IMG/VR virus record: IMGVR_UViG_3300048592_000244
Span: 1 to 64,000 of that record
DNA: 64,000 nt
Reading direction: 5' to 3' (one strand)
From: a virus
Within the stretch, counting starts at the first letter, position 1. Every line of letters begins with the position of its first letter. Both the position numbers and the translations under genes were made by a program. Under the pieces are notes generated by a model. That model ran no database searches. It saw only the letters and a program-made list of their open reading frames with translations, and had not been told where the DNA came from. Of the stretch, positions 1 to 20,093 are shown piece by piece.

Positions 1-20
1 GGGAAAAGCGAGACGACCGC

Positions 21-740
21 GTGAACAAGAAGTATTGGGGGATGCTTCATATCGTCGTCGAGTTCGGGAAGGAGCACGCCGTGAACTTCGGCGAGCACAA
101 TCGGTTCATCTCAGCGTTCGGTGGCATCGTCGGCAAGGCCGGGTTCTACGGCCAGCACCACTACACGGTGATGCAGGGACAGCCTGACGCTCGTGTGGTG
201 TTTTCCGCCACCTTCCGTATGGAAGCAGAACGCCCGAAGGAAATTCCCGACAAGGAGTTCATGCTCTCCGCTCTCGGCGGTGAGGAAGTAATGAAGTCCA
301 CCTTCACCCGGTATGCCGAGCTTGCCGAGGAGTACACCAAGATGTACGAGCACGAGGAGGAGGTGAAGCGGCAGGCCAACAACATCGTCCGTCACTTCAC
401 TGAGGAAGCGTGCGCCGAGGCGAAGAAGGTGGTCCGGTACGAGCAGCGCATGGCGGCGTTGCAGGCTGAGTACGTCGCTGAGGTTGAGGCGGTGGTCAAA
501 GCGAACATGAACGACTGGAAGGCGACTCTGGTGAAGGACAATGACGTCATCACCGAAGCGATCAAGCTGGGCATGGAGCATGTACCGGCGCACGCTGTCG
601 GAGCCGCGAAGAAAACAGGCGTGTTCAGGTCCGGCAATACGGACCCGGTGAAGTACGACGTTGCCACCATTGACGAGTGGCTGGAGGAAAAAGGCCATGT
701 CGATCAAGTTGTCAGTGGGAGTCCAACCGTCGAAGGGTAA
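21..740 (+). CDS. hypothetical protein
   Basis: 239-aa ORF with phage-typical codon usage, GTG start. Confidence 0.7.
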   Translation: MNKKYWGMLHIVVEFGKEHAVNFGEHNRFISAFGGIVGKAGFYGQHHYTVMQGQPDARVVFSATFRMEAERPKEIPDKEFMLSALGGEEVMKSTFTRYAELAEEYTKMYEHEEEVKRQANNIVRHFTEEACAEAKKVVRYEQRMAALQAEYVAEVEAVVKANMNDWKATLVKDNDVITEAIKLGMEHVPAHAVGAAKKTGVFRSGNTDPVKYDVATIDEWLEEKGHVDQVVSGSPTVEG

Positions 741-948
741 GACCCAGATCGTCGTGCATTATCCGGTGCTGGAAGTCGAGAGCCCGGAGGAGGCCGAAGC
801 TCTGCTGGCTTTCACATGCAGCAAGAACAGCGACGGTCTGCACATCGCCAACGAAGTAGAACTCGACAGATCGAACGCGCTGCTTGCGTTCCAGCGGCGG
901 CTGGCCGATGCCTACGCCGTGATGAAAAGGAAACCGAGGAGGAAATAG
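697..948 (+). CDS. hypothetical protein
   Basis: ATG at 697 after GGAGG; in frame with ORF 661..948. Confidence 0.6.
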   Translation: MSIKLSVGVQPSKGKTQIVVHYPVLEVESPEEAEALLAFTCSKNSDGLHIANEVELDRSNALLAFQRRLADAYAVMKRKPRRK

Positions 949-950
949 CT

Positions 951-1211
951 ATGACGAAGCGAACCTCGCACTACGAGTCCGAGGAGTACAAGAAGCTGCG
1001 TGAGCATCTTCGAGAGCACGCCACCGGCTACTGCCAGCGTGAGCATACTGGCGTGAGCGAAAGCGGCTACGGCTACCACCTCGAAATCTGGACGAACAAG
1101 CACACCATATACCCGGTGATGTTGACAGCGTGGGAGCAGCCGAGTGGTGAGTGGTACTGTCAACTTTGGGACGGCGGTCCCATTGAATTTCCCACAGAAG
1201 ACGAGGAGTAG
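951..1211 (+). CDS. hypothetical protein
   Basis: ATG at 951 after GGAGGA; abuts neighbours. Confidence 0.65.
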   Translation: MTKRTSHYESEEYKKLREHLREHATGYCQREHTGVSESGYGYHLEIWTNKHTIYPVMLTAWEQPSGEWYCQLWDGGPIEFPTEDEE

Positions 1212-1213
1212 CC

Positions 1214-2164
1214 ATGCCGTTCATCGACTACACAGGTAAGGGCCGCAAGGGGCTGGGGAAAAAGACGCTCTGGCTGATTGAGCAGGCCAACATCATTCTG
1301 GATGAGTACACAGAGCAGGGCTACGTCCTTACGTTGCGGCAGTTGTACTACCAGATGGTCAGCCGCAATATGATCCCTAACTCCGACAAGTCCTATAACA
1401 ACCTCGGCAGTGCAATTTCCACCGGGCGTGAACGTGGTCTGATTGATTGGGACCAGTTGACTGACCGCCTGCGAGAACTGGTGGAGTGGCAGACCTACGA
1501 CAACGTGCCGGAAGCCATCAGCCAACTGGCCGAGAGATTCCGACTGGACAAGTGGCGCAACCAGTCCTACCGACCGGAGGTGTGGGTAGAGAAGGACGCG
1601 CTGAGTGACGTCGTTCGTCGTGCCTGCTGGAAATTGCAGGTGCCCTACCTTGTGTGTCGTGGCTACGGCAGTTCGTCAGCACTGTGGCAGGCAGGCCGCC
1701 GCATGATCGAGCACAGGAAGTCCGACCAGCAACCCTACGTGATCCACCTTGGCGACCATGACCCGTCCGGCCTGCACATGACGGAGGATAATCGCAACCG
1801 CATCAGCTTGTTCGGCCTGCCAGCGATGGTAGGTGACAAGCGAGCCAGACCACAACTCAAGCGTATCGCTCTGAACATGGATCAGATCGAGCAGTACAAC
1901 CCGCCGCCGAACCCGGCCAAGCAGACAGACTCACGCTGGCAAAGCTACGTGGATCAGACCGGGCTCGATGAGTCGTGGGAGCTTGACGCACTGGAGCCAG
2001 CAGTCATTGAGGAACTGATTGAGTATGCCGTGCTGGAAATTCGTGACGATGATGCGTGGGAGGAAATGGTCAAGCTGGAAAATGAAGGCCGTAAACTGTT
2101 GACCACATGCTCCGATGGCTGGGGCGATGTGCGGGAATTTTTGAATGACACGTTTGGTGAATAA
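1214..2164 (+). CDS. Topoisomerase VI subunit A/Spo11-like TOPRIM protein (Mini-A-like)
   Basis: TLRQLYY (winged-helix catalytic Tyr motif), VWVEKDAL (TOPRIM Glu), RGYGS, GDHDPSG (DxD), ELDAL. Confidence 0.8.
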   Translation: MPFIDYTGKGRKGLGKKTLWLIEQANIILDEYTEQGYVLTLRQLYYQMVSRNMIPNSDKSYNNLGSAISTGRERGLIDWDQLTDRLRELVEWQTYDNVPEAISQLAERFRLDKWRNQSYRPEVWVEKDALSDVVRRACWKLQVPYLVCRGYGSSSALWQAGRRMIEHRKSDQQPYVIHLGDHDPSGLHMTEDNRNRISLFGLPAMVGDKRARPQLKRIALNMDQIEQYNPPPNPAKQTDSRWQSYVDQTGLDESWELDALEPAVIEELIEYAVLEIRDDDAWEEMVKLENEGRKLLTTCSDGWGDVREFLNDTFGE

Positions 2165-2175
2165 GGAGTGAACCC

Positions 2176-2898
2176 ATGACCGACAATGTGATAACCAAGA
2201 TCAAGCTCAACAAGCTATACACGCAGAACTGGTGGTACTTGGAGAAAATATTGCCACAGTTCTGTACCAAGCTGCCGCAGGAAAAGAAGGGCGACGTCGC
2301 CAGATTCCGCATCGACAAGCCATTGCCGACGCAGGATGAAATGACGGCGTTGATTGCCAAGTGGTACACCACCAGCGCCGAAGGACTCATCAGTGACGCG
2401 AACAGTGAGATCGAAGACCTGAAAAACGAGGTTGAGGAGTGGAAAGACAACATCGAGGAAAATTTCAGCGGCACGGAGAAGTACAACCAACTGGAGGAAG
2501 CATACGATCAGCTTGAGAACTATAGCGAACTCGAATGGCCGAGTGAAATTGAGGACTTCGAGATAGTCTACATTCCTCCGGTGCCAAAGATGTTCCGTGG
2601 GCGCATCACCCAGAGCCGTGCGTCACGTCTTGAGGAAGCCTGCGACAAGTTGCAGGTGGTTATGGACTGCCTCGAAGACCACAAGACAGAAGTCGTTGAG
2701 AAGTTGCGGAAATTGCTGGAAGACCTTGAGGACGTCGAGCGCACTGATGAGCAGCGCCAGCAGTTCTGTGATGAAAACGGCATCACAGGCGATGAAAGCC
2801 CGGATGATCTTGAGTCGGCTATCGACGACTTCATTGGTGAAATTGAAAACAACAAGTCGGAAGTCGAGGGCGTGGAGTTCCCCGGCATGTTTGGCTAA
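2176..2898 (+). CDS. hypothetical acidic helical protein
   Basis: 240-aa ORF, AAGGAG RBS. Confidence 0.75.
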   Translation: MTDNVITKIKLNKLYTQNWWYLEKILPQFCTKLPQEKKGDVARFRIDKPLPTQDEMTALIAKWYTTSAEGLISDANSEIEDLKNEVEEWKDNIEENFSGTEKYNQLEEAYDQLENYSELEWPSEIEDFEIVYIPPVPKMFRGRITQSRASRLEEACDKLQVVMDCLEDHKTEVVEKLRKLLEDLEDVERTDEQRQQFCDENGITGDESPDDLESAIDDFIGEIENNKSEVEGVEFPGMFG

Positions 2899-2910
2899 CA
2901 GGAGACCGCT

Positions 2911-3249
2911 ATGTTCAATGACGCTTCGCCGTTCCCGTGGCTTGTGGAAGGCAACGTCCTATACCGGATCGACAAGGTGGAAGGGGGTACGGAAAAAAAG
3001 ACGGAAATTGCCAGATTTCGAGTGTTCCAGATTCAAGGCAAAAGTAAGTTGAAGGGTGTCAGCATCGAGGAGGCACACGACAACGCAGCACTGGTCGCCC
3101 ACGCTATGAAGCTCTACATGAAGATGGAGGAATTCCTGACCGATGTCTTCAACGACGCGACGACAGAGGCTGGCGGCAAGTTGGTATCAAAGGAAGCGAA
3201 GAAACTGCGGGACGAATTCTATGCCCATGAGGACGTGTCGCAGGAGTAG
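2911..3249 (+). CDS. hypothetical protein
   Basis: AGGAGACCGCT-ATG start. Confidence 0.7.
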   Translation: MFNDASPFPWLVEGNVLYRIDKVEGGTEKKTEIARFRVFQIQGKSKLKGVSIEEAHDNAALVAHAMKLYMKMEEFLTDVFNDATTEAGGKLVSKEAKKLRDEFYAHEDVSQE

Positions 3250-3289
3250 GTAACATCAACCCATCACTTTTTTGAACAGGAGCTACACA

Positions 3290-4726
3290 ATGACAGAACA
3301 GACGACAATCGAACCGACCCCAGCATTCGAGACCGCTGAGGTCCAACAGGCACTGCGGACAGCACGCACCGTTCGCATGTCCTACGAGCCGGTCCAGAAT
3401 CTCATGGCCGAACTCAAGAACATGCAGGAGCGCAGCCGTGACTTCCTCGTCCCCTTCGACAAGTTGAAGGCGAAGCTGGTGGAAAACACCTTGCTCAAGG
3501 ACGACGGTGTTTACAGCACCTACAAGATGGTGCTGGAACTGAGCGAGGTGCCGGAAATTGGCACCATCGAACTCGGCCTGTACGAGCACGTCATCACTCA
3601 GCTTTGCCAGTTGACGACCATCAACGGCAAGGCGGGCGTGCCGACGCAGTACCTCAAGCGCCTGCTGAGTGATAACACCGACCGTGGTCTCGTGGCCCTC
3701 GGTGCCGTCAACGTGCAGGAATTGTTGAGCCGACGCTATGGCGAGGTTCACACCCGTGGCAAGACCGGCGAGGCGAAGGCGGTGCTGGTCCGCACCTTCA
3801 AGTTCGACGACGGGTTCAAGTGCCGGGCACTGTGCAGTGACCGCTACTTTCCGATCAAGACACTGGAGATGGTGACGATTGCGCTCGGCTTGGCCGGTGG
3901 CGCGATCAAGGTCAACGCTGACGGCGAGACGGCGGTGCAGGGTGCCTTCGTTTTCGACAAGCACGTCAGTGTGCAGAAGTGCAGCGTAGGCTTCACCAAC
4001 CCCAGCTACGCCTTCGACCTGCGCAACCCGGACAAGGGAATCATCCGGGCGGAGAGCATCACCAAGAACGAGGGCGGCAACCCGGTGTTCCACTACCCCG
4101 GTGGCGCGACCTACACCCTCGGCGGGAAATTCAACTACCCGGAGAGCGGGCCGCGCCAGCACCTCGTCTTCCCGGCGTGCCGAATTTCCAACAGCGAGAC
4201 CGGGGGCGGCAGCGCCGTCATCCAGCCGATGCTGTTTGAGGGTGCGTGCCTCAACGGTATGGTCTTCGCCACCGAGATGCGCCGGACACACATCGGCTCC
4301 ATCATGGAGGAAGCCAACGAGTTCGAGTCCAACGAGACCAAGAAGAAGAAAATGGAGACTGTCATCAGCATGATGACCGACGCCATGAAGCAGGTCTTCT
4401 CGATGGAGTCGTTCGAGGACAACTGCAAGAAATTCCTCAAGCTCAAGGACGTCCACCTCAAGTCGAACGTCGTCAAGGAAGTCACCGAGGAATTGCTGTC
4501 GGCGATTCCGGGCGGTGAGGGTCTGCTGGAGGACGTGCTCAAGTCCTACGAGCAGTTCACCTCCGGCATCGACTCGCTGTTCGATGTCCAGCGTGCGTTG
4601 ACCAACGTGGCGCAGGACCAGAACTACGACAAGCAGTCGGCGCTTGAGGAACTCGGCGGGATGCTGGCGTCCGGTGAGAAGAAGGTCGCTGACAAGTACC
4701 TCGTCGCGGCGACTGGCGCTCGCTAA
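3290..4726 (+). CDS. DUF932-like protein
   Basis: ISNSETGGGSAVIQPMLFEGACLNGMV matches the NSExG...CxNG signature; AGGAG RBS before ATG 3290. Confidence 0.6.
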   Translation: MTEQTTIEPTPAFETAEVQQALRTARTVRMSYEPVQNLMAELKNMQERSRDFLVPFDKLKAKLVENTLLKDDGVYSTYKMVLELSEVPEIGTIELGLYEHVITQLCQLTTINGKAGVPTQYLKRLLSDNTDRGLVALGAVNVQELLSRRYGEVHTRGKTGEAKAVLVRTFKFDDGFKCRALCSDRYFPIKTLEMVTIALGLAGGAIKVNADGETAVQGAFVFDKHVSVQKCSVGFTNPSYAFDLRNPDKGIIRAESITKNEGGNPVFHYPGGATYTLGGKFNYPESGPRQHLVFPACRISNSETGGGSAVIQPMLFEGACLNGMVFATEMRRTHIGSIMEEANEFESNETKKKKMETVISMMTDAMKQVFSMESFEDNCKKFLKLKDVHLKSNVVKEVTEELLSAIPGGEGLLEDVLKSYEQFTSGIDSLFDVQRALTNVAQDQNYDKQSALEELGGMLASGEKKVADKYLVAATGAR

Positions 4727-4749
4727 ACACCCTACTGTCGGAAAAGGTT

Positions 4750-4781
4750 GAGGGGCTTCCCTTTGGGCGGCCCCTCTTTTT
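4750..4781 (+). terminator. Rho-independent terminator
   Basis: GAGGGGC...GCCCCTC stem followed by TTTTT. Confidence 0.7.
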
Positions 4782-4799
4782 CCCGCAAGGGGGTGTACC

Positions 4800-5237
4800 G
4801 TGTCGGAAATTATGGTAAACCCCGTGGTCGCAGTGCCGATCTATGGGGTGTGCCCGGAAGGGTACATCAAGCACGAAGGCTACCCGGTCCTTGGCGTCGA
4901 TGGACGTCCGGTGCCGAGCCCGAGAGGATGGAGTGGGATGGTCGATGACCCTGACGGGTCTGTCGGCTTGATCCTGTTCGCCGCCTTCTTACCCGAGAGG
5001 GTGACTGGCGGTGAGATCATTCCTCTCGGTAGAACCTTCGCGGAAAATCTAGGGCAGGCAGCAGCAGTCATCTGCTCTTTTCCTCCGGTGTACCCCAAGA
5101 TCGAACATTTCCGAGCACGACACATGCGGGTCGTATCGGACACAGCAATCAGGGCGGATGTATTTTTCCCGCAGTGGCTGTTGGCAACAATGCTAGGGAG
5201 GAAAAAGGATGGCGGAAGTCACAGCCTATTTCGTTGA
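4800..5237 (+). CDS. hypothetical protein
   Basis: 145-aa ORF, GTG start after AAGGGGG. Confidence 0.6.
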   Translation: MSEIMVNPVVAVPIYGVCPEGYIKHEGYPVLGVDGRPVPSPRGWSGMVDDPDGSVGLILFAAFLPERVTGGEIIPLGRTFAENLGQAAAVICSFPPVYPKIEHFRARHMRVVSDTAIRADVFFPQWLLATMLGRKKDGGSHSLFR

Positions 5238-5601
5238 AGACACATTGCACGCTGAACTCAAGCGGAATATCACGCACGACTTCCGTCTGCCTGATGTTTT
5301 CCGTCAGATTCTCCTAAAGGGAATCGAGGATTTTGACGATGTAGTATTTCCATACTTCGAGAATGAGGAGTTTGTCGCCTACCTCAAAGACCCGAAGTTC
5401 AAGAGCAGAAGGAACGGACACAGTGTCCCCGTGGAATTTCCCACGAAACGCGCATTGAAGAATTTCCAGAAGGCGACAAAGGAGGCAGCAGAGAGAGTAG
5501 AAGAAACCCTGAACCTGTCCGGCATAAGGGTGCATCACATTGTGCGGGCCATCTTCCGTAGCTGGCTCGATAAGAAACTTGAAACAACGCTGGTCAACTA
5601 G
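5209..5601 (+). CDS. hypothetical protein
   Basis: 130-aa ORF, GGAGG RBS. Confidence 0.65.
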   Translation: MAEVTAYFVEDTLHAELKRNITHDFRLPDVFRQILLKGIEDFDDVVFPYFENEEFVAYLKDPKFKSRRNGHSVPVEFPTKRALKNFQKATKEAAERVEETLNLSGIRVHHIVRAIFRSWLDKKLETTLVN

Positions 5602-5616
5602 AGACAGGAGATTGGA

Positions 5617-7293
5617 ATGAACGAGGCCATGCAGGAAACCACGCGAGCAACTCAGGCAGATTTTCACCCAGAGAATCTGCTGACCGGCGCGATGGTTTCA
5701 GGCACGCATCCGGTCAGTGCGCCGGGCGGCCTGCTCAATCGAGTCTGGCACCTGTTCGACCAAGCCCAGAAGGGCGGCATCAGCACAGAACGTGTGCATG
5801 AGATCGTCCGGGGCTTGCCGGAACTGCGCCAACTCGTCGAGCAGTACACCGACCCCAGCACGGGCAAACCGCGTGCAGAGTGTGCCGACCCATCGAACCC
5901 CGGTGTGGTCGCAATGAAAGATGAGACCGCGTGCTTCGGCAGGAAGTGCGGATTCGCGTCCGGCTGCTTCTTGCAGTGCTCACTCGGTCCATCACATCGA
6001 CAGGACGGGACGCCCCTCGGCGTAGAGGGACAGGCCCCGGCCTACAACACAGCAGGACAGCCGCTCGGCAACGAGCAGTACACAGGCGTGCTCAAGGTGG
6101 ACGCCGAGGGGAACGTAATTTCCCCACAGCGCCACCGGGACAACTCGTGCATCACGCTGAGTATGTTCCTGCGTCTGGCGGGGATACCGCCCGCGCCGAC
6201 ACAACAACTGTCGGATGCACTGTGGGACATACTCCCGCAGGCACTGACAGCAGTGGAGCAGGGACTGCAAGCCCAGCCACAGCCGACCCCCGCAGCAGCG
6301 GCCCCGGCACAGGCACCGCCTGCACCACCGTCAGCACCACCGGCACCGCCACAGCCAGCCGCACCACCGCAGGCTGCTCCGCCCCAGCCGCAGGCTGCAC
6401 CACAGCCCCCGCAGGCGGCACCGCAGACTGCACCTCCAGCGCAGACACCGGCCCCGGCGACTCCGCCTGCTGGTCATGGATTGCCGCCGATTTTCCCCGG
6501 CGTCAATCTGAGCTACGACCAGCAGTGCGAATTGCACGCACTGATGTATGCGCTGGAGCACTCGCCGGAAAAGCCGAAGGGCGCACAGGCGATCAAGAAC
6601 ATGGAGAAGCGACACGCAGAAGCGAAGAAAACGCCGAAGGCAATTCTCGCTGCGTGGCGTAAGCCGTGCGAAGATCGCTCGCTGGTCATCGGTAGCGGCA
6701 CCAGTGCCCGGTTGAAGCCGGAGTTCTGGCCGCAGCACATTCCGGTTCCTGCGGGATATTACGAGACCGAAGCGCAGGCGTCGGCCACTCCGCAACCAGC
6801 ACCGCCTGCAAACGTACCGCCCGCTGCCGCGCCAGTGACTCCGGCAGCACCACAGACTGTGGCAGTGAAGCCGCAGGCTCCCGTGAACCCGCCGCAGAAG
6901 GTCGATTCCGACCAGAACGCGCCGGTGGCACCGGGAGGAAATTCACCCGTGGACATCAACACTGTCACACTGGACCCGGAATCAAAGGAGGCCCTCAAGG
7001 CGCACACCGAGGCTATGAACAATCTCGCTGCCGCGCTGCGAGGAGCGACGTTTCAAGGAGCAGGGCAAGACGGAGGAAATTCAGCAGGGACTCAACAAGC
7101 TGGCCAACCTCCTGCTCAAGTTCAGCAAGCTCCCCAACAGCCCGCAGGGCCTCCGCCAGTCTACGCCCAGCAACCTGCCCCAGCCCAGCAGCCCCCAGCC
7201 CCTCCCCCTCCACCAACCACCTTCCGTGACTACGGAAATCCCGTCAACGCCAGCGGTCCCATCGTTGACCCCGGACAGCCAACCATCAGGTAA
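5617..7293 (+). CDS. Pro/Ala/Gln-rich protein with a Cys cluster
   Basis: 558 aa; CFGRKCGFASGCFLQC cluster; long PAQ low-complexity tracts; AGGAGATTGG leader. Confidence 0.8.
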   Translation: MNEAMQETTRATQADFHPENLLTGAMVSGTHPVSAPGGLLNRVWHLFDQAQKGGISTERVHEIVRGLPELRQLVEQYTDPSTGKPRAECADPSNPGVVAMKDETACFGRKCGFASGCFLQCSLGPSHRQDGTPLGVEGQAPAYNTAGQPLGNEQYTGVLKVDAEGNVISPQRHRDNSCITLSMFLRLAGIPPAPTQQLSDALWDILPQALTAVEQGLQAQPQPTPAAAAPAQAPPAPPSAPPAPPQPAAPPQAAPPQPQAAPQPPQAAPQTAPPAQTPAPATPPAGHGLPPIFPGVNLSYDQQCELHALMYALEHSPEKPKGAQAIKNMEKRHAEAKKTPKAILAAWRKPCEDRSLVIGSGTSARLKPEFWPQHIPVPAGYYETEAQASATPQPAPPANVPPAAAPVTPAAPQTVAVKPQAPVNPPQKVDSDQNAPVAPGGNSPVDINTVTLDPESKEALKAHTEAMNNLAAALRGATFQGAGQDGGNSAGTQQAGQPPAQVQQAPQQPAGPPPVYAQQPAPAQQPPAPPPPPTTFRDYGNPVNASGPIVDPGQPTIR

Positions 7294-7357
7294 GAGTGGG
7301 AAAGGGCCTGCCACTCCACCACCTTTGAATTCTCAGGCCGACAAGAAGGGAGCAGCC

Positions 7358-7753
7358 GTGAAGAAGACGGCGAAGAAAAAGCCCGCTGCCAAGAAGAAGG
7401 CGGCTGCCAAGAAAAAGGCACCCGCCAAGAAGAAGGCACCGGCAAAGAAGTCCGCAGCAAAGAAGAAGCCCGCTCCGAAGAAGTCGGCTGCCAAGAAGAA
7501 GACGGCAGCCAAGAAGACGGGCGGGGCGAAGAAGGAAAATCGCCCGCGCAACATCGAGCCGCACAAGCGTTACCCGGACGTCGAGTCCCTGCCCTACAAG
7601 TGGCAGCCGGGCACGAAGAACAAGCCGGGCAGTCGTGGTCGTCCGCCCACCGGCTGGAAGAAGAACAAGGACGGCGAGTACGTGGCACCGAAGGGCTGGC
7701 GGAAAATCGCTGGCAAGTGGCACAAGCCCGTGGAGAAGGCCAAGCGAAAGTAG
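7358..7753 (+). CDS. Histone H1-like (Lys/Ala/Pro-repeat) DNA-binding protein with AT-hook-like RGRP motif
   Basis: KKxAAKK repeats over about 55 aa, then GSRGRPP (RGRP at 7634-7645); GTG start after GAAGGGAG. Confidence 0.8.
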   Translation: MKKTAKKKPAAKKKAAAKKKAPAKKKAPAKKSAAKKKPAPKKSAAKKKTAAKKTGGAKKENRPRNIEPHKRYPDVESLPYKWQPGTKNKPGSRGRPPTGWKKNKDGEYVAPKGWRKIAGKWHKPVEKAKRK

Positions 7754-7762
7754 AGGTGCGCC

Positions 7763-8329
7763 TTGAGCAAGAGGATGTACGACGCGCTCAAGGACATCGA
7801 CGACATGGGTCTCGTCAGGCTGCGTGAGCAGCACAAGCGTGACCCGCTTTGGTGTGACATGAAATTCGGTTCTTGGCTGGAGGTGCATTGTGCCTTCCGT
7901 GAGGAACGCGGTCATGCCAGAGGCTTTCGCAAGGGAGTGAAGGCTGGGTTGGCGCAGGCCGAAGGGTCTGCGCCGCCCGTCTCCATGAGGACGCTGGCGT
8001 TAGTCTGGAGCGTGATAGTCCCGGCCCTCGCGGTCGTGAACGCTCTGCTGCTATTGCTGGCAATCAGGTTGATTGAGCAGGACTTAGTGATGTGGTTCGC
8101 CCTCGTCATGGTGCTCCTGCCTTTCACAGTTGTGTCGCAGGCAACAGGTACAGGCTTCCTGTTCCAACGGCTCTACAACTGGTGTCTCAAACGACCGGAT
8201 GATGAGCAGGTGATTGTCGTAAAGGTTCCGATGGAATCTGCCGATAAGGAAGACGACGAATACAGCCTGTGGGGAACGGAGCAGATCAACGATGCCATCA
8301 ACGAAGGTACAAGTAGCGACAGCGACTGA
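7763..8329 (+). CDS. membrane protein
   Basis: Two hydrophobic segments (LALVWSVIVPALAVVNALLLLLAI; LVMWFALVMVLLPFTVV). Confidence 0.7.
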   Translation: MSKRMYDALKDIDDMGLVRLREQHKRDPLWCDMKFGSWLEVHCAFREERGHARGFRKGVKAGLAQAEGSAPPVSMRTLALVWSVIVPALAVVNALLLLLAIRLIEQDLVMWFALVMVLLPFTVVSQATGTGFLFQRLYNWCLKRPDDEQVIVVKVPMESADKEDDEYSLWGTEQINDAINEGTSSDSD

Positions 8330-11309
8330 TCTCTGGTCCCAGACAGACATCCAAAAGTCGTGTGAGAAATGCGGCTTGGCAGCAAGGTGTGCAAAGGCCG
8401 CCCCCACCATGTTCCCATCGGTGGGGGCGGACGCGCCCCAGATCATGGTGGTGCTCCCGTACCTTGAAGACTACGACGTAGCCTGCCGCAGAATTTCCCT
8501 CGACACACCGGAGAACCGCGCACTGCACCAGATGGGTGTGAACGTCGGCCTACCGGCTGACTGGTTGCAGTCGATGACACGGGTAGCCGTGGCTGTGAAG
8601 TGCCCCGGCAAGTTCACCAACAAGCAGCAGAAAATCTGCCGCGACTTCCTGCTGGCGGAAATTGCCCACTACCGACCGAAGCTGGTCATCACTGTGGGCA
8701 AGCAGGCAACGCAGGCACTACTTGGCCGCGCTGACGGGATACCGGGGCGCGGTCGTGTGTTCAGACTGGATGAGGAAATTGGCCTTGCTGTGAAGTCCAC
8801 GGACGGAGGGTCTGTTTCCCTGACTGGTTTGCAGGAAATTCGGGTCATGCGTATCCAGAGACCGGGTGTGTGTCTGGACGACCCCGGCTTTATGGAGTAC
8901 CTCCACCATGACTTCACCAAGATACCGCGTGTACTCAACGGCACGTTCGCAGAGAAGACCAGCTTCGAGGGCAGGAACTACCACCTGTGCATGGACTTCG
9001 CCTTCGCCAAGCAGGCGCTTGAGTATTTCATGCAGGTTCCGTCACTCAGCTTTGACATCGAGACTGGCCCCGGCCAGTACGGCTTGGAGCCTTACTCAGC
9101 CAAGAGCAAAATCCTTTGCATCGCGTTTGCTGACCGTCAGCGGAACTCGTATTGCATTCCTCTCGATCACAAGGACAGCCCCCTCCGAGAGCATCTACCG
9201 GAGCTTGTACCACTTATCCGCGACGTCTTGACGCGTAAAGAGTGCGAGATCAATGCCCACAACGGGAAGTTCGATACCCGGTGGGTGAAATTGAAGTACG
9301 GCTTCGACACAGCACTGACCGATGACACGATGATTATGCACGGCGTGCTGGACGAGAACAAAGAGCACGCTCTCAAGACACTGGCTGAACTCGACACTGA
9401 CCTTGGCTACTACGACGACGAACTCCTCGAATGCTTCCGTGACGAGAAGGGGAAATTAGTCAGCAAGTTCAAGCGTGACTACGAGGCGCACGTTCCGCTG
9501 GAAACTCTCATGCGGTATTGCTGCGCCGACGCCGACGCCGCTGAGGTGCTCAAGTGGGTATATAAGGAAAGGCTTGAGCAGCAGTACCTCTGGACGTACT
9601 ACCGCGAACACAAGATGCCGGACCTGCTGGAGACGTCGTACACCGAGCAACACGGCATAGCGTTTGACCGGAAACATCGAGATGAAGTAGAAGCAAAAGC
9701 GAAGACCCGGCTGGCGGAAATTTCCACAGCCATCGCTGACGACCCTTGGCTCCATCATTGGCGTGTGCAGCGATCAGCGGAATATGAGGCCGAAGGCCGG
9801 GTCTTCCTTCATCTCGACACCATCTGGTCGAGCTACCAAGCCTACCTGCGCAATGACACCCCGTTATTTTCCATCGCCCATCAGGCTGACTGGCACAACG
9901 GTGCCAGCACCAAGGCGCTGACGGACAACAAAATCCTGCGCAAGATGAAGGGCAAGCTGGAGCCGTACAAGTCGAAGGTCTACACGCTGGAAGGCGACGA
10001 CGGCATCACGCTGAACATGAACTCGTCGAAGCAGTTGCAGACCTTCTTGTACGACTCGCGGTTCCTCAACCTCAAGGTCACGAAGACGACGAAGAAGGGC
10101 GGGGCACCGGCGACCGACAAGAATTTCCTCAAGCTGCACGAGGATAAATTCCCCGTGCTCAAGAACCTGCTGGCGTACAAGTCAGTCATCAAGTGGAAGT
10201 CCACCTACCTCGATCCGTTCGTCTGCGGCGAATACTACGACGAGGAAAAGAACGAGACCCGCATTGGCTACATCAAGGAAGACGGGCTCATTCACCCGGA
10301 GTACCTGCTCACCGGCAATGACAAGGGCATGGACAAGAAGGGTGACGCACGCGGCACCAAGACCGGCAGAAAATCCTGCATCAACCCGAACATCCAGAAT
10401 CAGAAGAAGCGCGGTGAGGGTGCCAAGGACATCTACAAGTATTTCATCTCCCGCTGGCGTGACGACGGCGGTCTGATTCTACAGGCCGACTTCTCGCAGC
10501 TTGAGTTGCGTGTCTTCGCCGCCATCGCCGGTGTCCGGTGGATGATCGAGAAGTACCAGCAGGGCGCTGACTTGCACACCGAGATGGGCATGGAGGCTTT
10601 CCGCAAGTCGCGGGAAGAAGTCTTGGCCAACGGGAAATTGCTGCGTGCTGCTGCGAAGGAATTGTGGTTCGGCCCGATCTACGGTGAAGGCTGGAAGGCG
10701 ATCAAAGAAGTGCTGGAGCAGAAGCACAAGATCAAGATGACAGACGAGGAAGCCAAGGCGCTCATGGATAGCATGTACGCCAAGATGCCTGAGTACCAGC
10801 AGTACAAGGCAGGCTACGAGCAACTCCTCGACAAACACGCTGCTGTGTGGACTCCGTTCGGTCGCCGCCGCTACCTGCCGATGTGGTTCTCCCGCGAGAA
10901 GTGGATGAAGGCACGCGCCGGTCGTCAGGCTGGTAATTTCATCATCCAGTCCACCGGCTCTGACATGACGTCGTGGGCTTGGGTGATCCTGAACAGGTGG
11001 GCACGCGAGAACGGCGTCCAGTCCAAGCTCATCATCAGCGTGCATGACTCGCTGGTCTGGGACGTGTACCCCGGTGAGCGGGAAATCATCGCAGCCGTGA
11101 CCCGGTACGTGATGGAGCATCTGCCGTTCAGCTTCGTTAGGAACTGGCCGGTGCCGATCCTCGCTGACATCGAGTACGGTGACGCCGGTGGTTCGTGGGG
11201 CGATATGGAGGAAATTGAGCGTGGTGTGATCGACCAGCATGAAGGTCAGATCATCACGCTGCCGCAGTACCAGAGTGTTGTCGCAACGTGTGATAGGATG
11301 ATTGCATGA
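8292..11309 (+). CDS. polA: DNA polymerase family A with N-terminal UDG family-4-like domain and 3'-5' exonuclease
   Basis: Exo motifs SFDIETG, HNGKFD, YCCADAD; TGRKSCINPNIQN; motif A QADFSQLELRV, motif B RAAAKELWFGPIYG, motif C VHDS; N-terminal CxxC...VKCP...C...RPKLVITVG UDG4 fold signature. Confidence 0.95.
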   Translation: MPSTKVQVATATDLWSQTDIQKSCEKCGLAARCAKAAPTMFPSVGADAPQIMVVLPYLEDYDVACRRISLDTPENRALHQMGVNVGLPADWLQSMTRVAVAVKCPGKFTNKQQKICRDFLLAEIAHYRPKLVITVGKQATQALLGRADGIPGRGRVFRLDEEIGLAVKSTDGGSVSLTGLQEIRVMRIQRPGVCLDDPGFMEYLHHDFTKIPRVLNGTFAEKTSFEGRNYHLCMDFAFAKQALEYFMQVPSLSFDIETGPGQYGLEPYSAKSKILCIAFADRQRNSYCIPLDHKDSPLREHLPELVPLIRDVLTRKECEINAHNGKFDTRWVKLKYGFDTALTDDTMIMHGVLDENKEHALKTLAELDTDLGYYDDELLECFRDEKGKLVSKFKRDYEAHVPLETLMRYCCADADAAEVLKWVYKERLEQQYLWTYYREHKMPDLLETSYTEQHGIAFDRKHRDEVEAKAKTRLAEISTAIADDPWLHHWRVQRSAEYEAEGRVFLHLDTIWSSYQAYLRNDTPLFSIAHQADWHNGASTKALTDNKILRKMKGKLEPYKSKVYTLEGDDGITLNMNSSKQLQTFLYDSRFLNLKVTKTTKKGGAPATDKNFLKLHEDKFPVLKNLLAYKSVIKWKSTYLDPFVCGEYYDEEKNETRIGYIKEDGLIHPEYLLTGNDKGMDKKGDARGTKTGRKSCINPNIQNQKKRGEGAKDIYKYFISRWRDDGGLILQADFSQLELRVFAAIAGVRWMIEKYQQGADLHTEMGMEAFRKSREEVLANGKLLRAAAKELWFGPIYGEGWKAIKEVLEQKHKIKMTDEEAKALMDSMYAKMPEYQQYKAGYEQLLDKHAAVWTPFGRRRYLPMWFSREKWMKARAGRQAGNFIIQSTGSDMTSWAWVILNRWARENGVQSKLIISVHDSLVWDVYPGEREIIAAVTRYVMEHLPFSFVRNWPVPILADIEYGDAGGSWGDMEEIERGVIDQHEGQIITLPQYQSVVATCDRMIA

Positions 11310-11818
11310 AAGCTGACCTGAATCCTGAGAGGAAGGTGACGGTGCTCGATGTAGAGGAGCACCGTTACATCTTTGATCTCACCAACATCGTGTCGGAAAA
11401 TGTGGTAGGCTCCGAGGCCGCACTGCGTGAAGCATCCCAGATGCTCGCCACTGTGGTCACGCTCAAGCCCATCGTGGATTCCGAGTACGCCAAGACCAGC
11501 GGAAAAACTTACGCCCTATTCTGGGACGAGGGCACGGTCAACATCGTTCCGGGGAAAAAGAAAACGAAGGAGGACTACGCCCACTGGAAACACACGCAGC
11601 CGGAGTATGTTGCGGCGCTCAAGGCCAGAGACTATATTGCCTCGCTGACCGACAAGCTGACGTACAACTACATCCCGCGACTGCGAGACCTAACCGACAG
11701 CACGAAGTCAGCCGAAAGAAATGCAAGGGCGGGTGAGAACGCCCAGCCAGCATTGCCAAGGGTTCCGGTATCGCCGCCTGCCCCGTTCGGGCCGCCGACG
11801 TCACCGGGCGCAAGATAA
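11306..11818 (+). CDS. hypothetical protein (possible replication/recombination mediator)
   Basis: 170-aa ORF overlapping pol stop (ATGA), between pol and SSB; function is positional inference only. Confidence 0.65.
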   Translation: MKADLNPERKVTVLDVEEHRYIFDLTNIVSENVVGSEAALREASQMLATVVTLKPIVDSEYAKTSGKTYALFWDEGTVNIVPGKKKTKEDYAHWKHTQPEYVAALKARDYIASLTDKLTYNYIPRLRDLTDSTKSAERNARAGENAQPALPRVPVSPPAPFGPPTSPGAR

Positions 11819-11830
11819 GGAGATTGGAAA

Positions 11831-13321
11831 ATGTCAGGATACCCGCAGCAAAATGTCCCGGCGTGGTTGCAGGGGCACCAGAAGCAGAGCCAAGACAACG
11901 AGGAAGGTGGCGGCCTCGAAGGCGTGACTCCGCCAGCAATGAAGTTCAAGGAAGGCGACAGTCACTTCCGCCTGATGCCACCGGCAGAAGCTATCCCGGC
12001 TGCGCTCGCCGCTGCCCGCGCCGGGCAGTCAGCCGACTGGTCGGGCGGTGGCATGTCCCCGGTCTGCCGCATGAAGGTGTATTTTCCTTCATGGTCTGAC
12101 GGTGCCTCCAAGGGAATTTCCCTGTTCGGCAACAAGGCTGTGGTAAGCCCGTCCACGGTGTTCCCGAATGAGGCCGGGCCGATCTACGGCAACGACCCGG
12201 CAGCCGAGTGGCTGGAGAAGGAAGGCATCCGTTACATGAAGACGGATGATCTCAAGAAGAACCCGATGCTCGCTGCATTCCGTGAAGCTCTGTCGTACAA
12301 GGACCGCACGGTGTTGCAGCTTGTGAACCTCGGGCTGTCGCAGAATGGTGGACCGATTTACCTCCAGCCCGGACAGGGCAACGTGGAGACGTACTTCGTC
12401 TACGCCAATGACTTCGACAGCAAGTGGACACGCCCGCTGTTCACTGAGGTGATCGAGCGCGGTCGCCATCCGTTCGACCCCGGCTGGTACGGCATCCACT
12501 TCGGTATCTACCGCAAGGGCACCGACCGCAACACGGAGTACAGCAATCTCCGTGGTCTGTTCGGTGCGCCCTACGGTGACGCCGCGCAAAGCTACGGCTA
12601 TGCCATGTGCGTTGATTTCCAGACGGGCCAACCGAACTGGCAGGAAATCGAACGCCTGCTGGCACAGGTCAAGCCGTGGAAGCAGGTCATGCACATCGCC
12701 ACCGTGGAGGAGGTGAAGGAAAATCTCGAACGAGTGATCGCCACGATCCACGAGAAGTTCGCCCCCGCGCAGTCGTCAGTGCCGCAGATGCCGGGAGGAA
12801 ATTACGCGGCCCCTCCGTCGTCCGGGTTGCCGCCATCATCCCCGGCGATGCCCGGTGGAGGACCGGCTGTACCTCCGCCTCCGGGCGGCGTGCAGTATCC
12901 TCCGCAGGCGGGTGCCCCACAGGGTCCGCCGCAGGCACCGCCCAGCGCACCACCGGCACCACCGGCACCACCGGCTCCGCCAGCAGGACCGCCGTCCGGG
13001 CCGCCACAGGGTCAGCCGTCTGGTCCTCCAGCGCCCGGTGGCTACGCCCCGCCAGCAGGACCACCGCAGCAACCGCAATATCCGCAGCAGGCACCACCGG
13101 CAGGTCCGCCGCAGTACGGACAGCCGCCGCAGTATCCGGGCTCGACGGTGCCGAACACGCCGCCGAACACTCCGCCGCTGTCAGCGCCACCGCAGGGTAT
13201 GAACCCGGCAGGCGTGCAGGGAGCAGCACAGGGGGCGGCACCACCGGCTCCGCCTGCACCACCGGCTCCGCCGTCTCAGCCGGGCGGTCCTCCTGTTCCG
13301 CCTCCGCCCCCGACGCGTTGA
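11831..13321 (+). CDS. gp32-like single-stranded DNA-binding protein with long Pro-rich tail
   Basis: KFKEGDSHFRLMPP and FDPGWYGIHFGIYRKGTDRNTEY resemble gp32-like SSB motifs; located next to pol. Confidence 0.65.
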   Translation: MSGYPQQNVPAWLQGHQKQSQDNEEGGGLEGVTPPAMKFKEGDSHFRLMPPAEAIPAALAAARAGQSADWSGGGMSPVCRMKVYFPSWSDGASKGISLFGNKAVVSPSTVFPNEAGPIYGNDPAAEWLEKEGIRYMKTDDLKKNPMLAAFREALSYKDRTVLQLVNLGLSQNGGPIYLQPGQGNVETYFVYANDFDSKWTRPLFTEVIERGRHPFDPGWYGIHFGIYRKGTDRNTEYSNLRGLFGAPYGDAAQSYGYAMCVDFQTGQPNWQEIERLLAQVKPWKQVMHIATVEEVKENLERVIATIHEKFAPAQSSVPQMPGGNYAAPPSSGLPPSSPAMPGGGPAVPPPPGGVQYPPQAGAPQGPPQAPPSAPPAPPAPPAPPAGPPSGPPQGQPSGPPAPGGYAPPAGPPQQPQYPQQAPPAGPPQYGQPPQYPGSTVPNTPPNTPPLSAPPQGMNPAGVQGAAQGAAPPAPPAPPAPPSQPGGPPVPPPPPTR

Positions 13322-13392
13322 GCATCGGGTGATGGACTTGTATCGTGGGTGCGGTCTGATAAAGGCCGCACCCTTTGCGGAGCAGCGGGAAA

Positions 13393-14034
13393 ATGACAGA
13401 CGCCGTGGTTAGAAACTGGTCCGACTTGAACGATGATGAAAAAGCCATCATCAAGCTGCTGTACGTCAATGGCGTCCATTCGCTTGCTCAGGTAGCTCGC
13501 ATCTGGAACCTGAACTACAACGGGCTGAACCAGATATGCTACAAGAAGGGATGGACGAAGGAAAAAGAGCAGTGTGAAACTTCGGTCCAGCAGAACTGGC
13601 TGGCGCATACGAAGTTCATGCAGCGCGTAACCCAGATGATGGAAATTATTCATCAGGGCTACGAAGACCTGATGATGCGCCACCAGCTTGCTGACTCGTT
13701 CGATCAATTTCCTTTCGAGACCTACTTCACCTTCTTGGAGACGTACTCCAAGCTGGTGACTTCGCTCGGCGGCGTGAAGCCTGTGTCGCAGGATACGCAC
13801 CTGTACTTGCAGCAGAACAACTTGCAGCAGAACAACCTGAACATGGGCAACCAGAACGACGTGCTCGACAGTCCGGCTGTAGCCAGCATCACCAACAAGG
13901 ACGCCAAGGTGATGTTGAGGAAGGTGATCGAGAACATTGTGCTGCACACCAAGCCGCCACAGCCGCAGGAGATTCCGGCACAGATTGTGGCACCGGAAAA
14001 TGAGCCTGACCCAGCGCGAGGGAAATTCAGATGA
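13393..14034 (+). CDS. HTH protein, possible terminase small subunit
   Basis: IKLLYVNGVHSLAQVARIWNLNYNGLNQICYKKGW resembles the N-terminal HTH of TerS proteins; helical middle and QNN-rich segment. Confidence 0.45.
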   Translation: MTDAVVRNWSDLNDDEKAIIKLLYVNGVHSLAQVARIWNLNYNGLNQICYKKGWTKEKEQCETSVQQNWLAHTKFMQRVTQMMEIIHQGYEDLMMRHQLADSFDQFPFETYFTFLETYSKLVTSLGGVKPVSQDTHLYLQQNNLQQNNLNMGNQNDVLDSPAVASITNKDAKVMLRKVIENIVLHTKPPQPQEIPAQIVAPENEPDPARGKFR

Positions 14035-14393
14035 AGGTGACAATCGAAGTGCTTGGTGACACGCAGGAAAACGATCTTGCCGTGCTTGAGGAACTCGTCA
14101 GTTTCAGGGGTTTTGACGACATCCTGCCCGGCGATGGATTCGTGCTGGAGGAGAAGGAAGGGCAGCCGCCGCGCATCGCCTATCTGAATCGACGTCTGTT
14201 TCGACCAAGCCCGAAATTTCACAAGCTCATCTTTGAGGTGGGCGAGCCACAGAGACCGACCGTCAAGCTGGACCCGCAGGCATTGCGGGCTGAGTTGCAG
14301 GAATTCGTGATCCGCAAGAGCGCAGCATTCGCTCGACCGGAGATCGCCGCGAAGGAATTGACCGACTTCTTTACTAAATTCATTGGGAGATAG
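14031..14393 (+). CDS. hypothetical protein
   Basis: ATGA overlap with upstream gene. Confidence 0.65.
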   Translation: MKVTIEVLGDTQENDLAVLEELVSFRGFDDILPGDGFVLEEKEGQPPRIAYLNRRLFRPSPKFHKLIFEVGEPQRPTVKLDPQALRAELQEFVIRKSAAFARPEIAAKELTDFFTKFIGR

Positions 14394-14394
14394 C

Positions 14395-15282
14395 GTGCCG
14401 TTCAACATGCGCTTAGAGGAAATTGCGCCGAGCAAGACCGACGCGTTCCCCGACCACGAGTTCAAACACAAGTTCGTGATCGTAGACGACAACGAAAAAC
14501 CGACAGGGCAGGAGTGGATCGCCGGGCAGGCGTTCGACTGGCAGAAGGAGTTGCTACCGGCCAAGCCGGACAGTGATTGGTTCGCCTTCATCAAGGACAT
14601 CAACTCCCTGATCGACGATGCCAAGCATTTCCGCGAGAACGAAATTCCCCGCCTCCAGAAGAAGGAGGAGGCGCTGGCGAAGAAGGTAGAAGACTTGAGC
14701 TTCCACCTTGAGGTTCGCAAGAAGGAATTGGGCACGGCGCTCAACCGGAATACCCGCAACCGCTCGGCCTACTACACGCTGCGTGACTACGAGGCGCGGT
14801 TCAACCTGCTGCATGGGCTGGCGCAACTCACACAGGTGCAGTCCCAGATCATCGACCTGATAACCGCCTGCATTATCCGCCGCGTACAGGCTCGGATGCG
14901 CTGGCTGGTGCCATTGTTCTGCAAGGTCGGAATGCGCAAGCCTGACGGACCCATCGAGAAGCTGAACGAGATGGTGGATGAGGAGCCGTACTTCGAGATG
15001 TACGTCTGGCACCCGTTCACTGACGACCTCGGCAACATCATGGAGGACTACCTCGACATTGACGCCATGCGTGACTACCCGCTGATTCTCCAGCAGGTGA
15101 TGGACCCGGTGAAGTACCGGACGCTCGTGAAGGAAAAGCAGAAGCAGGCACAGCAGGCCGCCGAGCGCAAGGCGCGTGGAGACGACGGCAAGGTCATCAT
15201 CGCCAGCGAACAGGACGAGCGTAACATCGCCGACTTCCACAAGAAATTCGGAGACCAGCTTGGCGGATTGGGAAAGAAATGA
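14395..15282 (+). CDS. hypothetical coiled-coil protein
   Basis: GTG start after GGGAG; in frame with ORF 14383..15282. Confidence 0.7.
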   Translation: MPFNMRLEEIAPSKTDAFPDHEFKHKFVIVDDNEKPTGQEWIAGQAFDWQKELLPAKPDSDWFAFIKDINSLIDDAKHFRENEIPRLQKKEEALAKKVEDLSFHLEVRKKELGTALNRNTRNRSAYYTLRDYEARFNLLHGLAQLTQVQSQIIDLITACIIRRVQARMRWLVPLFCKVGMRKPDGPIEKLNEMVDEEPYFEMYVWHPFTDDLGNIMEDYLDIDAMRDYPLILQQVMDPVKYRTLVKEKQKQAQQAAERKARGDDGKVIIASEQDERNIADFHKKFGDQLGGLGKK

Positions 15283-17297: not shown

Positions 17298-17303
17298 GAA
17301 GAA

Positions 17304-17906: not shown

Positions 17907-17943
17907 AGCGTAACCGGAAACCAAACGCAGGGAGGAAATAACC

Positions 17944-18246: not shown

Positions 18247-18270
18247 TAGCAAAACAACCTCTGCGTTACT

Positions 18271-18302
18271 CAGGTCGTGCCTTGTTGGGCACGACCTGTT
18301 TT
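18271..18302 (+). terminator. Rho-independent terminator
   Basis: CAGGTCGTGCC/GGCACGACCTG stem plus TTTT. Confidence 0.75.
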
Positions 18303-20082: not shown

Positions 20083-20093
20083 AAGGGGACGAC

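What the first reader, a model, noticed from the sequence alone, without database searches (positions are those of the whole stretch)
7358..7753. Phage histone H1-like protein with an AT-hook-like motif: candidate reader of the GAAATT marks
Seen: about 55 aa of KKxAAKK repeats followed by a Trp/Lys-rich domain containing GSRGRPP, two genes upstream of the polymerase. Known: H1-like K/A/P repeats condense DNA, and AT-hooks (core RGRP) bind the minor groove of AATT-type tracts. Inference: together with the genome-wide GAAATT enrichment this could be an undescribed phage chromatin system in which the phage marks its GC-rich genome with AT islands and coats them for compaction, self/non-self discrimination or shielding from host defences.
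Basis: partly seen in the sequence, partly recalled or inferred. Interest (0 to 1): 0.78.

Follow-up and report, generated by a model that had tools for sequence, protein, structure and literature searches.

The report
Phage AT-hook-like DNA anchor protein
A small, extremely basic protein of an uncultured Planctomycetota phage joins a histone-H1-like lysine/alanine tail to a new folded mini-domain with an invariant AT-hook-like GRPP loop, and it is the best candidate to bind the G-AAATT-C words that this phage has written about 270 times into its genome, though that link is not shown.

Summary
ORF 7358-7753 (+) encodes 131 aa: a 57-aa K/A/P tail (K 46%, A 32%, P 9%), then a 74-aa Trp/Lys-rich core with GSRGRPP. 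It lies two genes upstream of the family-A polymerase.

New findings:
- The core is an unannotated ~50-65-aa module, with no hit in Pfam, PHROGs, PDB sequences or PDB folds. PGxxGRPP and one Trp are invariant in 21 homologues. AlphaFold models it as folded (pLDDT 83).
- In more distant homologues (long metagenomic proteins, genomic context unknown) the K/A linker plus core form the C-terminus of the protein that the window encodes just upstream (5617-7293). The target is therefore a detached DNA-anchor module.
- The module otherwise occurs only in a few Planctomycetota genomes, in a ~3-kb phage-derived cassette. This names the host phylum.
- The GAAATT enrichment is real: 267 copies, against about 73-80 under codon-preserving nulls. 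It is phage-specific, because host-like genomes show none.
- G-AAATT-C is the classic AT-hook site: HMGA1 hooks were solved on GGGAAATTCCTC.

Verdict: DNA binding through an AT-hook-like minor-groove loop is likely. A dedicated "reader of marks" role is plausible but untested. The cross-phage correlation could not be run because contigs of relatives were unreachable. This is a new variant of a known kind (phage-encoded AT-tract-binding nucleoid-type proteins).

The parts
7358..7753 (+). Target gene, 131 aa (GTG start; stop TAG 7751-7753)
   Evidence: Homologues P0001-P0006 are 63-85% identical over the full length and 69-88% over the core.
7346..7352 (+). Shine-Dalgarno-like AAGGGAG, 5 nt before GTG 7358
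   Evidence: Read. Relatives P0001 and P0002 start at the equivalent MKK position.
7226..7357 (+). In-frame open extension upstream of the start. It overlaps the end of the upstream gene in the +1 frame and holds an alternative TTG start at 7325.
   Evidence: A 19-residue stretch of this extension is shared with P0027, and P0003 and P0004 begin in the equivalent region.
7358..7528 (+). Lys/Ala/Pro low-complexity tail (57 aa; K 46%, A 32%, P 9%), compositionally like the histone H1 C-terminal domain
   Evidence: Its length and position (N- or C-terminal) vary among homologues. pLDDT is about 50.
7529..7750 (+). Conserved Trp/Lys-rich core module (74 aa), predicted folded
   Evidence: 20 hits in the full HMMER search. 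Invariant W82, P90, G91, G94, R95, P96, P97. AF2 pLDDT 82.8, pTM 0.64. No Pfam, PDB or fold match.
7628..7648 (+). GSRGRPP, the AT-hook-like loop
   Evidence: Read. GRPP is invariant in 21 sequences; the first R is replaced by P in P0009 and P0017 and by K in P0015.
5617..7293 (+). Upstream gene 'gpX' (558 aa): an N-terminal domain with a 4-Cys motif, Pro/Ala linkers and helical middle domains. In the more distant homologues its C-terminus carries the K/A linker plus the core.
   Evidence: A2: 33-37% identity over the full length to P0011, P0018, P0019 and P0022, all of which end in the core. Chromosomal copies are 74-83% identical.
7763..8329 (+). 188-aa membrane-type ORF between the target and the polymerase. 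The same order is seen in relative L001.
8292..11309 (+). Family-A DNA polymerase with 3'-5' exonuclease and an N-terminal UDG-like stretch (context: replication module)
1..64000 (.). 166 GAAATT/AATTTC words, often GGAAATTC, spread evenly through coding DNA in all frames. These are the proposed binding sites.

Best explanation
The gene encodes a DNA-anchoring protein of the phage's replication module. Part one is a disordered polycationic Lys/Ala/Pro tail that should hold DNA electrostatically, as the histone H1 C-terminal domain does. Part two is a small folded domain, new to the databases, that presents an invariant P-G-x-x-G-R-P-P loop (RGRPP in most members). I infer that this loop enters the narrow minor groove of short A/T tracts, as the RGRP hooks of HMGA and the RGR loops of Lsr2 and H-NS-type proteins do.

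The protein is the split-off C-terminal module of the upstream protein gpX. In more distant homologues the two form one polypeptide, so its likely job is to tether gpX or itself to DNA. In this phage, 37% of all A/T runs of 5 bp or more contain AAATT, almost always as G-AAATT-C, and host-like genomes have 10-50 times fewer per base. The protein would therefore concentrate on phage DNA.

Shown: the anatomy, the conservation, the fusion and fission, the reality and phage-specificity of the motif, and the host phylum. Inferred: DNA binding, minor-groove mode, site preference and biological role.
For: - Composition and charge.
- GRPP and a Trp are invariant in 21 homologues that are otherwise 35-88% identical.
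- The core is modelled with confidence as a compact unit, while the tail is not.
- The K/A tails change length and change ends among relatives, as expected for a non-specific polycation.
- Fusion to gpX homologues through a K/A linker.
- The position downstream of gpX always holds a core-bearing protein, including in chromosomal cassettes.
- The gene lies in the polymerase module and outside the YGTAGATA-box region.
- It is the only RGRP protein in the phage, and no HU/IHF was found.
- GAAATT 267 against 73-80 under nulls, and GGAAATTC 80 against 10-11.
- Host-like genomes are not enriched.
- HMGA1 hooks were solved on GGGAAATTCCTC, and RGR-type Lsr2 prefers A-tracts with AATT, 5-6 W flanked by G/C, without TpA (PMC8476142).
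- Host Lsr2 relocates to phage replication zones, and phages encode Lsr2-like proteins (PMC10066036).
Against: - There is no experimental or structural evidence of DNA binding.
- The Pfam scans reported no AT-hook family even at E <= 10.
- The motif sits in a predicted folded domain whose fold matches nothing solved, so the loop geometry is unknown.
- The first Arg of RGR is replaced by Pro in two homologues and by Lys in a third.
- With net charge +42 the protein may bind any DNA or RNA without preference.
- The same module occurs in 330-aa chromosomal proteins of genomes with no GAAATT enrichment, so it does not need the motif.
- The GG...CC flanks and near-palindromy of the enriched word suggest a dimeric major-groove reader at least as much as a hook.
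- The start codon is uncertain, and independent translation is not proven.
Confidence: 0.55

Rival explanations
1. Dedicated phage chromatin. GAAATT words are marks selected so that this protein coats phage DNA specifically, for compaction, self/non-self discrimination or protection.
For: The motif is positively selected, evenly spread, frame-independent and phage-specific. It equals the canonical AT-hook site. This is the sole RGRP protein, and no HU or methylase was found. Phage-derived cassettes that carry the module keep a phage-like motif density, 1.5-2 per kb, in two of the three compared with the phage (G003, G001).
Against: No binding data exist. One hook reads about 5 bp and cannot explain selection on the GG/CC flanks. 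The module also works in genomes without the motif. The genome already escapes restriction by lacking 48 of 64 palindromic hexamers. The co-occurrence test across phages could not be run.
Confidence: 0.2
2. A non-specific polycation. It would condense or neutralise DNA (host nucleoid shut-off, replication-compartment crowding or a packaging aid) without sequence preference, and the GAAATT words would serve another factor.
For: Net charge +42 and 32% Lys. The tail is labile. The palindromic flanks of the motif point to another, dimeric reader.
Against: Strict invariance of GRPP, Trp and the folded core across 35-88% identity is not needed for a mere polycation. The gene is not in the late, box-bearing region.
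Confidence: 0.2
3. Not an independent protein. The ORF would be expressed mainly as the C-terminus of gpX by a +1 ribosomal frameshift in the 7226-7293 overlap, recreating the fused form seen in relatives.
For: The target frame is +1 relative to gpX and open from before 7100. The upstream extension is conserved in P0027. Fused homologues exist.
Against: A good SD plus GTG lies at 7358, and gene callers start P0001 and P0002 at the same place. No recognisable +1 slippery site was seen. Pro-rich GC-rich DNA keeps alternative frames open by chance. A stand-alone gpX followed by a separate core gene exists in G003.
Confidence: 0.12
4. A site-specific regulator or silencer-type protein acting at a few AT-rich promoters of phage or host. 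The chromosomal 330-aa homologues, with an extra N-terminal domain and an acidic tail, suggest this.
For: The layout 'N-terminal domain, basic linker, AT-hook-like C-domain' of the 330-aa proteins recalls the H-NS and Lsr2 layout (PMC8476142, PMC10066036).
Against: The phage protein has no oligomerisation domain. The N-domain of the 330-aa proteins has no Pfam match, and my ribbon-helix-helix reading of it is unverified.
Confidence: 0.1
5. An RNA-binding or non-nucleic-acid role, for example an extended-AT-hook-like RNA binder or a choline/cell-wall-binding-like GW hairpin repeat.
For: The top fold and Pfam rows, all insignificant, are choline-binding repeats (E 1.9). GRP hooks with distant basic patches can bind RNA (own knowledge).
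Against: All these matches are far below threshold. There is no signal peptide. The protein has extreme basic charge and sits in a replication-module context.
Confidence: 0.05

Closest known systems
Eukaryotic HMGA AT-hooks (RGRP) and the Myxococcus CarD C-terminal HMGA-like / histone-H1-like domains
   Same: An RGRP core in a Lys-rich setting. The solved HMGA1 site GGGAAATTCCTC equals the phage's enriched word (PMC8476142, PMC7145567). In CarD orthologues an RGRP-hook region and a K/A/P H1-like region are functionally equivalent DNA anchors attached to a protein-interaction domain (PMC4374960 and its ref. 5). Here both kinds of element occur in one module attached, or formerly attached, to gpX.
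   Different: There is one hook, not three or four. It is embedded in a conserved, predicted folded Trp-rich mini-domain rather than in a disordered chain. There is no acidic tail. No AT_hook family match was reported. No homology to CarD or HMGA was detected.
AT-hook-like DNA-binding domains of xenogeneic silencers (Lsr2, H-NS/Bv3F), including phage-encoded Lsr2-like proteins
   Same: A small folded domain presents an R/Q-G-R loop to the minor groove of AT-rich DNA. Lsr2 prefers AATT A-tracts of 5-6 bp flanked by G/C in GC-rich genomes. Phages encode their own copies, and host Lsr2 marks phage replication zones.
   Different: No sequence or fold similarity was found to the Lsr2 or H-NS families in the Pfam and PDB searches. 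The phage protein has no oligomerisation domain, and a polycationic tail takes its place. The taxon differs (Planctomycetota and their phage).
Bacterial histone-H1-like K/A/P proteins (Chlamydia Hc1/Hc2, Pseudomonas AlgP, Bordetella BpH)
   Same: Lys/Ala/Pro repeat composition and expected non-specific DNA condensation (own knowledge).
   Different: The similarity is compositional only. No family match was found. Here the repeat is an appendage of a conserved domain and is not itself conserved.
SPO1 TF1 (a phage-encoded HU-type protein that prefers the phage's own hmU DNA)
   Same: The concept is shared: an abundant phage DNA-binding protein that recognises a feature distinguishing phage DNA from host DNA (own knowledge). 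The window's polymerase is most like those of SPO1-like and CP-51-like phages, at 27% identity.
   Different: TF1 has an HU fold and reads a modified base.

Membership tests
Histone H1 / linker histone (PF00538) | Winged-helix globular domain | tested here: not met
   No Pfam match at E <= 0.1 or <= 10. AF2 shows no helical globular domain.
Histone H1 / linker histone (PF00538) | Lys/Ala/Pro-rich disordered C-terminal-domain-like tail | tested here: met
   K 46%, A 32%, P 9% over 57 aa with no acidic residue. Low pLDDT. This shows composition only, not homology.
AT-hook (PF02178 / SMART AT_hook) | G-R-P core, usually R-G-R-P, flanked by basic residues | tested here: met
   The context is KPGSRGRPPTGWKK. 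GRPP is invariant in 21 homologues.
AT-hook (PF02178 / SMART AT_hook) | Match to the family profile | tested here: inconclusive
   No AT_hook row at E <= 10. The profile is very short, and HMMER filters drop weak matches.
AT-hook (PF02178 / SMART AT_hook) | Disordered peptide that orders only on DNA | tested here: not met
   The motif lies in a module modelled as compact, with pLDDT 82-87 around it. This is a prediction only.
AT-hook (PF02178 / SMART AT_hook) | Binds the minor groove of A/T tracts | not testable with these tools
   Needs EMSA or NMR, and netropsin competition.
H-NS / Lsr2 / MvaT / Rok xenogeneic silencers | Homology to one of the known DNA-binding domains | tested here: not met
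   No Pfam family, no PDB sequence hit and no fold match.
H-NS / Lsr2 / MvaT / Rok xenogeneic silencers | N-terminal oligomerisation domain plus linker plus C-terminal AT-binding domain | tested here: not met
   The phage protein has only a low-complexity tail. The 330-aa chromosomal homologues do have an N-terminal domain, of unknown fold.
Choline-binding / cell-wall-binding repeat (PF01473) | Profile match over the gathering score, several tandem repeats | tested here: not met
   E 1.9 and 9.5 bits against a cut-off of 20.5, over a single 10-residue stretch. Foldseek rows have E > 2.
New family: 'GRPP-Trp module' of Planctomycetota phages and cassettes | PHP...W-x-P-G-x-x-G-R-P-P-x-G ... G-x-W-H-x-P signature, about 50 aa | tested here: met
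   20 hits with E <= 1e-3 among 1.84 billion representatives. Alignments A1, A3 and A4. A genome pattern scan hit only four Planctomycetota MAGs.

The most novel reading that the evidence does not exclude
A sequence-encoded phage chromatin. The phage has positively selected about 270 G-AAATT-C words (one per 400 bp, absent from the host background). A dedicated AT-hook-like mini-domain reads them, alone or as the C-terminal anchor of the large linker-rich protein gpX. The result is a phage-specific nucleoprotein or replication zone that distinguishes self from host DNA without any base modification.
Probability: 0.2. Interest if true: 0.85.

Novelty: new variant of a known kind. Interest (0 to 1): 0.6.

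Why it matters
Phage-encoded nucleoid-type proteins are known (TF1, Lsr2-like, H-NS-like), but none is known for Planctomycetota phages. None is paired with a positively selected, genome-wide binding word.

Here a concrete protein, a concrete 6-9-bp word and a concrete mutant (GRPP) make the idea of sequence-encoded self-marking of a viral genome directly testable in vitro, without cultivating the host.

Three further results stand on their own:
- The work defines an unannotated DNA-anchor module.
- It shows the module's fusion and fission with a conserved phage protein.
- It assigns the phage to a narrow Planctomycetota clade.

Tried and rejected
- **Family and structure searches.** Pfam and PHROGs on the target gave nothing. 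tblastn against GenBank phages gave no match. PDB sequence search found none. The ESM Atlas gave no usable hit for the core and only sub-threshold leads for gpX. Foldseek and VIA-align on both models found no significant fold.
- **Scans for relatives.** IMG/VR scans with the family alignment, the polymerase, the gpX alignment and a degenerate DNA pattern found no close relatives. The single metagenome scan returned one 1-kb contig.
- **Codon artefact, rejected.** The motif occurs in all frames and both orientations, and it exceeds the synonymous shuffles.
- **By-product of restriction-site and TpA avoidance, rejected.** The constrained shuffle still gives about 80 against 267.
- **Host genomic signature, rejected**.
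- **An error of mine.** I at first took loci L014 and L020 (contig starts) for the cassette regions. They are not, and their counts are not used.

Full report
**1. The observation**

The + strand ORF ending at 7753 is real. From GTG 7358, preceded by AAGGGAG at 7346-7352, it gives 131 aa.
- Residues 1-57 are a Lys/Ala/Pro repeat (K 26, A 18, P 5, no acidic residue).
- Residues 58-131 are Trp/Lys-rich (W 4, K 16, R 7) and contain GSRGRPP, encoded at 7628-7648.
- Net charge is +42. This is the most basic of the 131 predicted proteins of the phage and the only one with RGRP in a basic context.

The start is not settled. The frame is open from before 7100 and overlaps the end of the upstream gene in the +1 frame. 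An in-frame TTG lies at 7325. A close relative's ORF (P0027) carries a conserved upstream extension.

**2. The genome**

The window is the first 64 kb of a 106,113-bp linear virus record. It has 57.7% GC and a CheckV completeness of 87%. It has no close relative among GenBank phages or in IMG/VR.

**3. What the protein is**

No Pfam or PHROGs family matches. Searching the 74-aa core against 5.8 billion proteins found only six close homologues of 113-140 aa.
- In these, the core is 69-88% identical.
- The Lys/Ala tail changes length and sits at the N-terminus in some and the C-terminus in others. The tail is therefore a labile polycationic appendage, and the core is the conserved unit.

A full HMMER pass over 1.84 billion representatives found 20 hits. 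Reading them gives a module of about 50 aa.
- It begins P-H-P and runs through W-x-P-G-x-x-G-R-P-P-x-G.
- It ends in two Gly/Trp hairpin-like segments and W-H-x-P.
- W82, P90, G91, G94, R95, P96 and P97 are invariant in 21 sequences.
- The first Arg of RGR is Pro in two sequences and Lys in one.

With this 21-row alignment, AlphaFold models the core as a compact unit of short strands (mean pLDDT 82.8, pTM 0.64). The tail stays at pLDDT about 50. Neither Foldseek nor VIA-align finds a solved fold that resembles it.

**4. Fusion and fission**

Four of the distant hits (585-680 aa) and two fragments align over their whole length, at 33-37% identity, with the protein encoded just upstream in the window (5617-7293, here 'gpX', 558 aa). 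gpX has an N-terminal domain with a 4-Cys motif, Pro/Ala linkers and helical middle domains.
- These distant hits end in a Lys/Ala linker followed by the core.
- In this phage and its closest relatives the module is a separate ORF.
- In one Planctomycetota genome, gpX is stand-alone and is followed by a 339-aa core-bearing protein.

The target is thus the detached C-terminal DNA-anchor module of gpX. A +1 frameshift that would recreate the fusion cannot be excluded. The SD-GTG start at 7358, where the called ORFs of P0001 and P0002 also begin, argues for independent initiation.

**5. Host**

A degenerate DNA pattern for the module hit four records among 185,579 species genomes. All four are Planctomycetota MAGs.
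- There the module lies in 330-aa proteins with an unannotated N-terminal domain, a basic linker, the core, and an acidic/Pro-rich tail.
- In three of the four MAGs (G001-G003) these sit in a ~3-kb cassette that also holds homologues of window genes 20094-20357, 5209-5601 and gpX. The gpX copies are 74-83% identical.
- No phage polymerase is present, so these are phage-derived fragments and not prophages.
- Only 4 of 301 sampled Planctomycetota genomes carry the 330-aa protein.

The host is therefore very probably a narrow Planctomycetota clade, not Myxococcota as another note suggested.

**6. The motif**

| Word | Observed | Null or expectation |
|---|---|---|
| GAAATT, window | 166 | 19.8 +/- 4.5 (dinucleotide shuffles) |
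| GAAATT, genome | 267 | 72.8 +/- 6.8 (synonymous-codon shuffle) |
| GAAATT, genome | 267 | about 80 (179 avoided words and TpA count also preserved) |
| GGAAATTC, genome | 80 | 10-11 under both shuffles |

- The word is evenly spread and occurs in all three frames and both orientations.
- The flanks favour G before and C after, giving GGAAATTC.
- Of 745 A/T runs of 5 bp or more, 276 contain AAATT.
- Host-like genomes are not enriched. They have 42-62 GGAAATTC per 3.9-4.7 Mb, against 80 in 0.106 Mb of phage. Their 100-kb samples hold 12 and 16 GAAATT, where 11 and 10 are expected.
- The phage-derived cassettes in G003 and G001 keep a phage-like density.

The enrichment is therefore positively selected and specific to this phage lineage.

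**7. Does the protein read the motif?**

This is not shown. The case is circumstantial but coherent.
- HMGA1 AT-hooks were solved on GGGAAATTCCTC, binding the AATT minor groove. The RGR loop of Lsr2 prefers A-tracts containing AATT, 5-6 A/T pairs flanked by G/C, without TpA (PMC8476142, PMC7145567). That describes G-AAATT-C exactly.
- The phage record has no HU/IHF and no N6/N4 or C5 methylase detectable with PF00216, PF01555 or PF00145.
- The gene sits in the replication module, outside the region that carries YGTAGATA boxes.
- Host Lsr2 is needed to set up phage replication zones in mycobacteria, and many mycobacteriophages encode Lsr2-like proteins (PMC10066036).

Against the link:
- One hook spans about 5 bp and does not explain the selected GG/CC flanks.
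- The module also exists in genomes without the motif.
- A +42 polycation may bind anything.

**8. Comparison and verdict**

The protein works most like an HMGA, CarD or Lsr2-type minor-groove anchor joined to an H1-like polycation (PMC4374960). It is not a member of the linker-histone, H-NS, Lsr2 or choline-binding families, and it meets only the sequence criterion of an AT-hook.

I file it as a new variant of a known kind: a new DNA-anchor module family of Planctomycetota phages.

| Claim | My probability |
|---|---|
| DNA binding | about 0.75 |
| A/T-tract minor-groove preference | about 0.5 |
| Dedicated reader of GAAATT marks | about 0.2-0.3 |

Noticed in passing
whole window and genome (G000:C1:1-106113): Extreme word avoidance. 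48 of 64 palindromic hexamers are absent. TTAA occurs once per strand (about 212 expected per strand), CCWGG 0 times (311 expected) and the asymmetric CAAAT/ATTTG 0 times (122 expected). ACTGGG is also absent. GAATTC, GACGTC and TGGCCA are not avoided. Host-like genomes do not avoid CCWGG or CAAAT. This points to pressure from many restriction systems and to an unmodified genome.
   Followed up: partly
window 5617-7293 (+): gpX is a 558-aa conserved protein with no family. It has an N-terminal domain with a C-x4-C-x5-C-x3-C motif, long Pro/Ala linkers and helical middle domains. In more distant homologues (long metagenomic proteins) it is fused to the K/A linker and GRPP module. Planctomycetota chromosomes hold copies 74-83% identical. 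Its function is unknown.
   Followed up: partly
L005 about 700-4027; L007 370-2516; L008 852-2671 (Planctomycetota MAGs): A ~3-kb phage-derived cassette: an 87-aa protein, a homologue of window 5209-5601, gpX (full-length or truncated in the Pro-rich linker) and a 330-aa core-bearing protein. In two genomes it lies next to a response-regulator/Ser-Thr kinase gene. G153 has two copies of the 330-aa gene.
   Followed up: partly
window 8292-11309 (+): A family-A polymerase with a 3'-5' exonuclease and an N-terminal UDG-superfamily-like stretch (PF03167, E 2e-4, below cut-off). The best phage matches are only 27% identical (CP-51, SPO1-like, PMBT14-like).
   Followed up: no
window 17898-50992: YGTAGATA occurs 10 times against 0.4 expected, 9 of them on the + strand, and all beyond 17.9 kb. 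None lies in the replication module.
   Followed up: partly
window 1214-2164 (+): A strong match to phrog_6247 'DNA topoisomerase' (E 2e-98) with no Pfam hit.
   Followed up: no
genome-wide: A second enriched word family, GGAAAAT / GAAAATC (79 and 69 copies against 7.5 expected), differs from GGAAATTC at one position. Two copies lie inside the target gene itself (7535, 7702).
   Followed up: no
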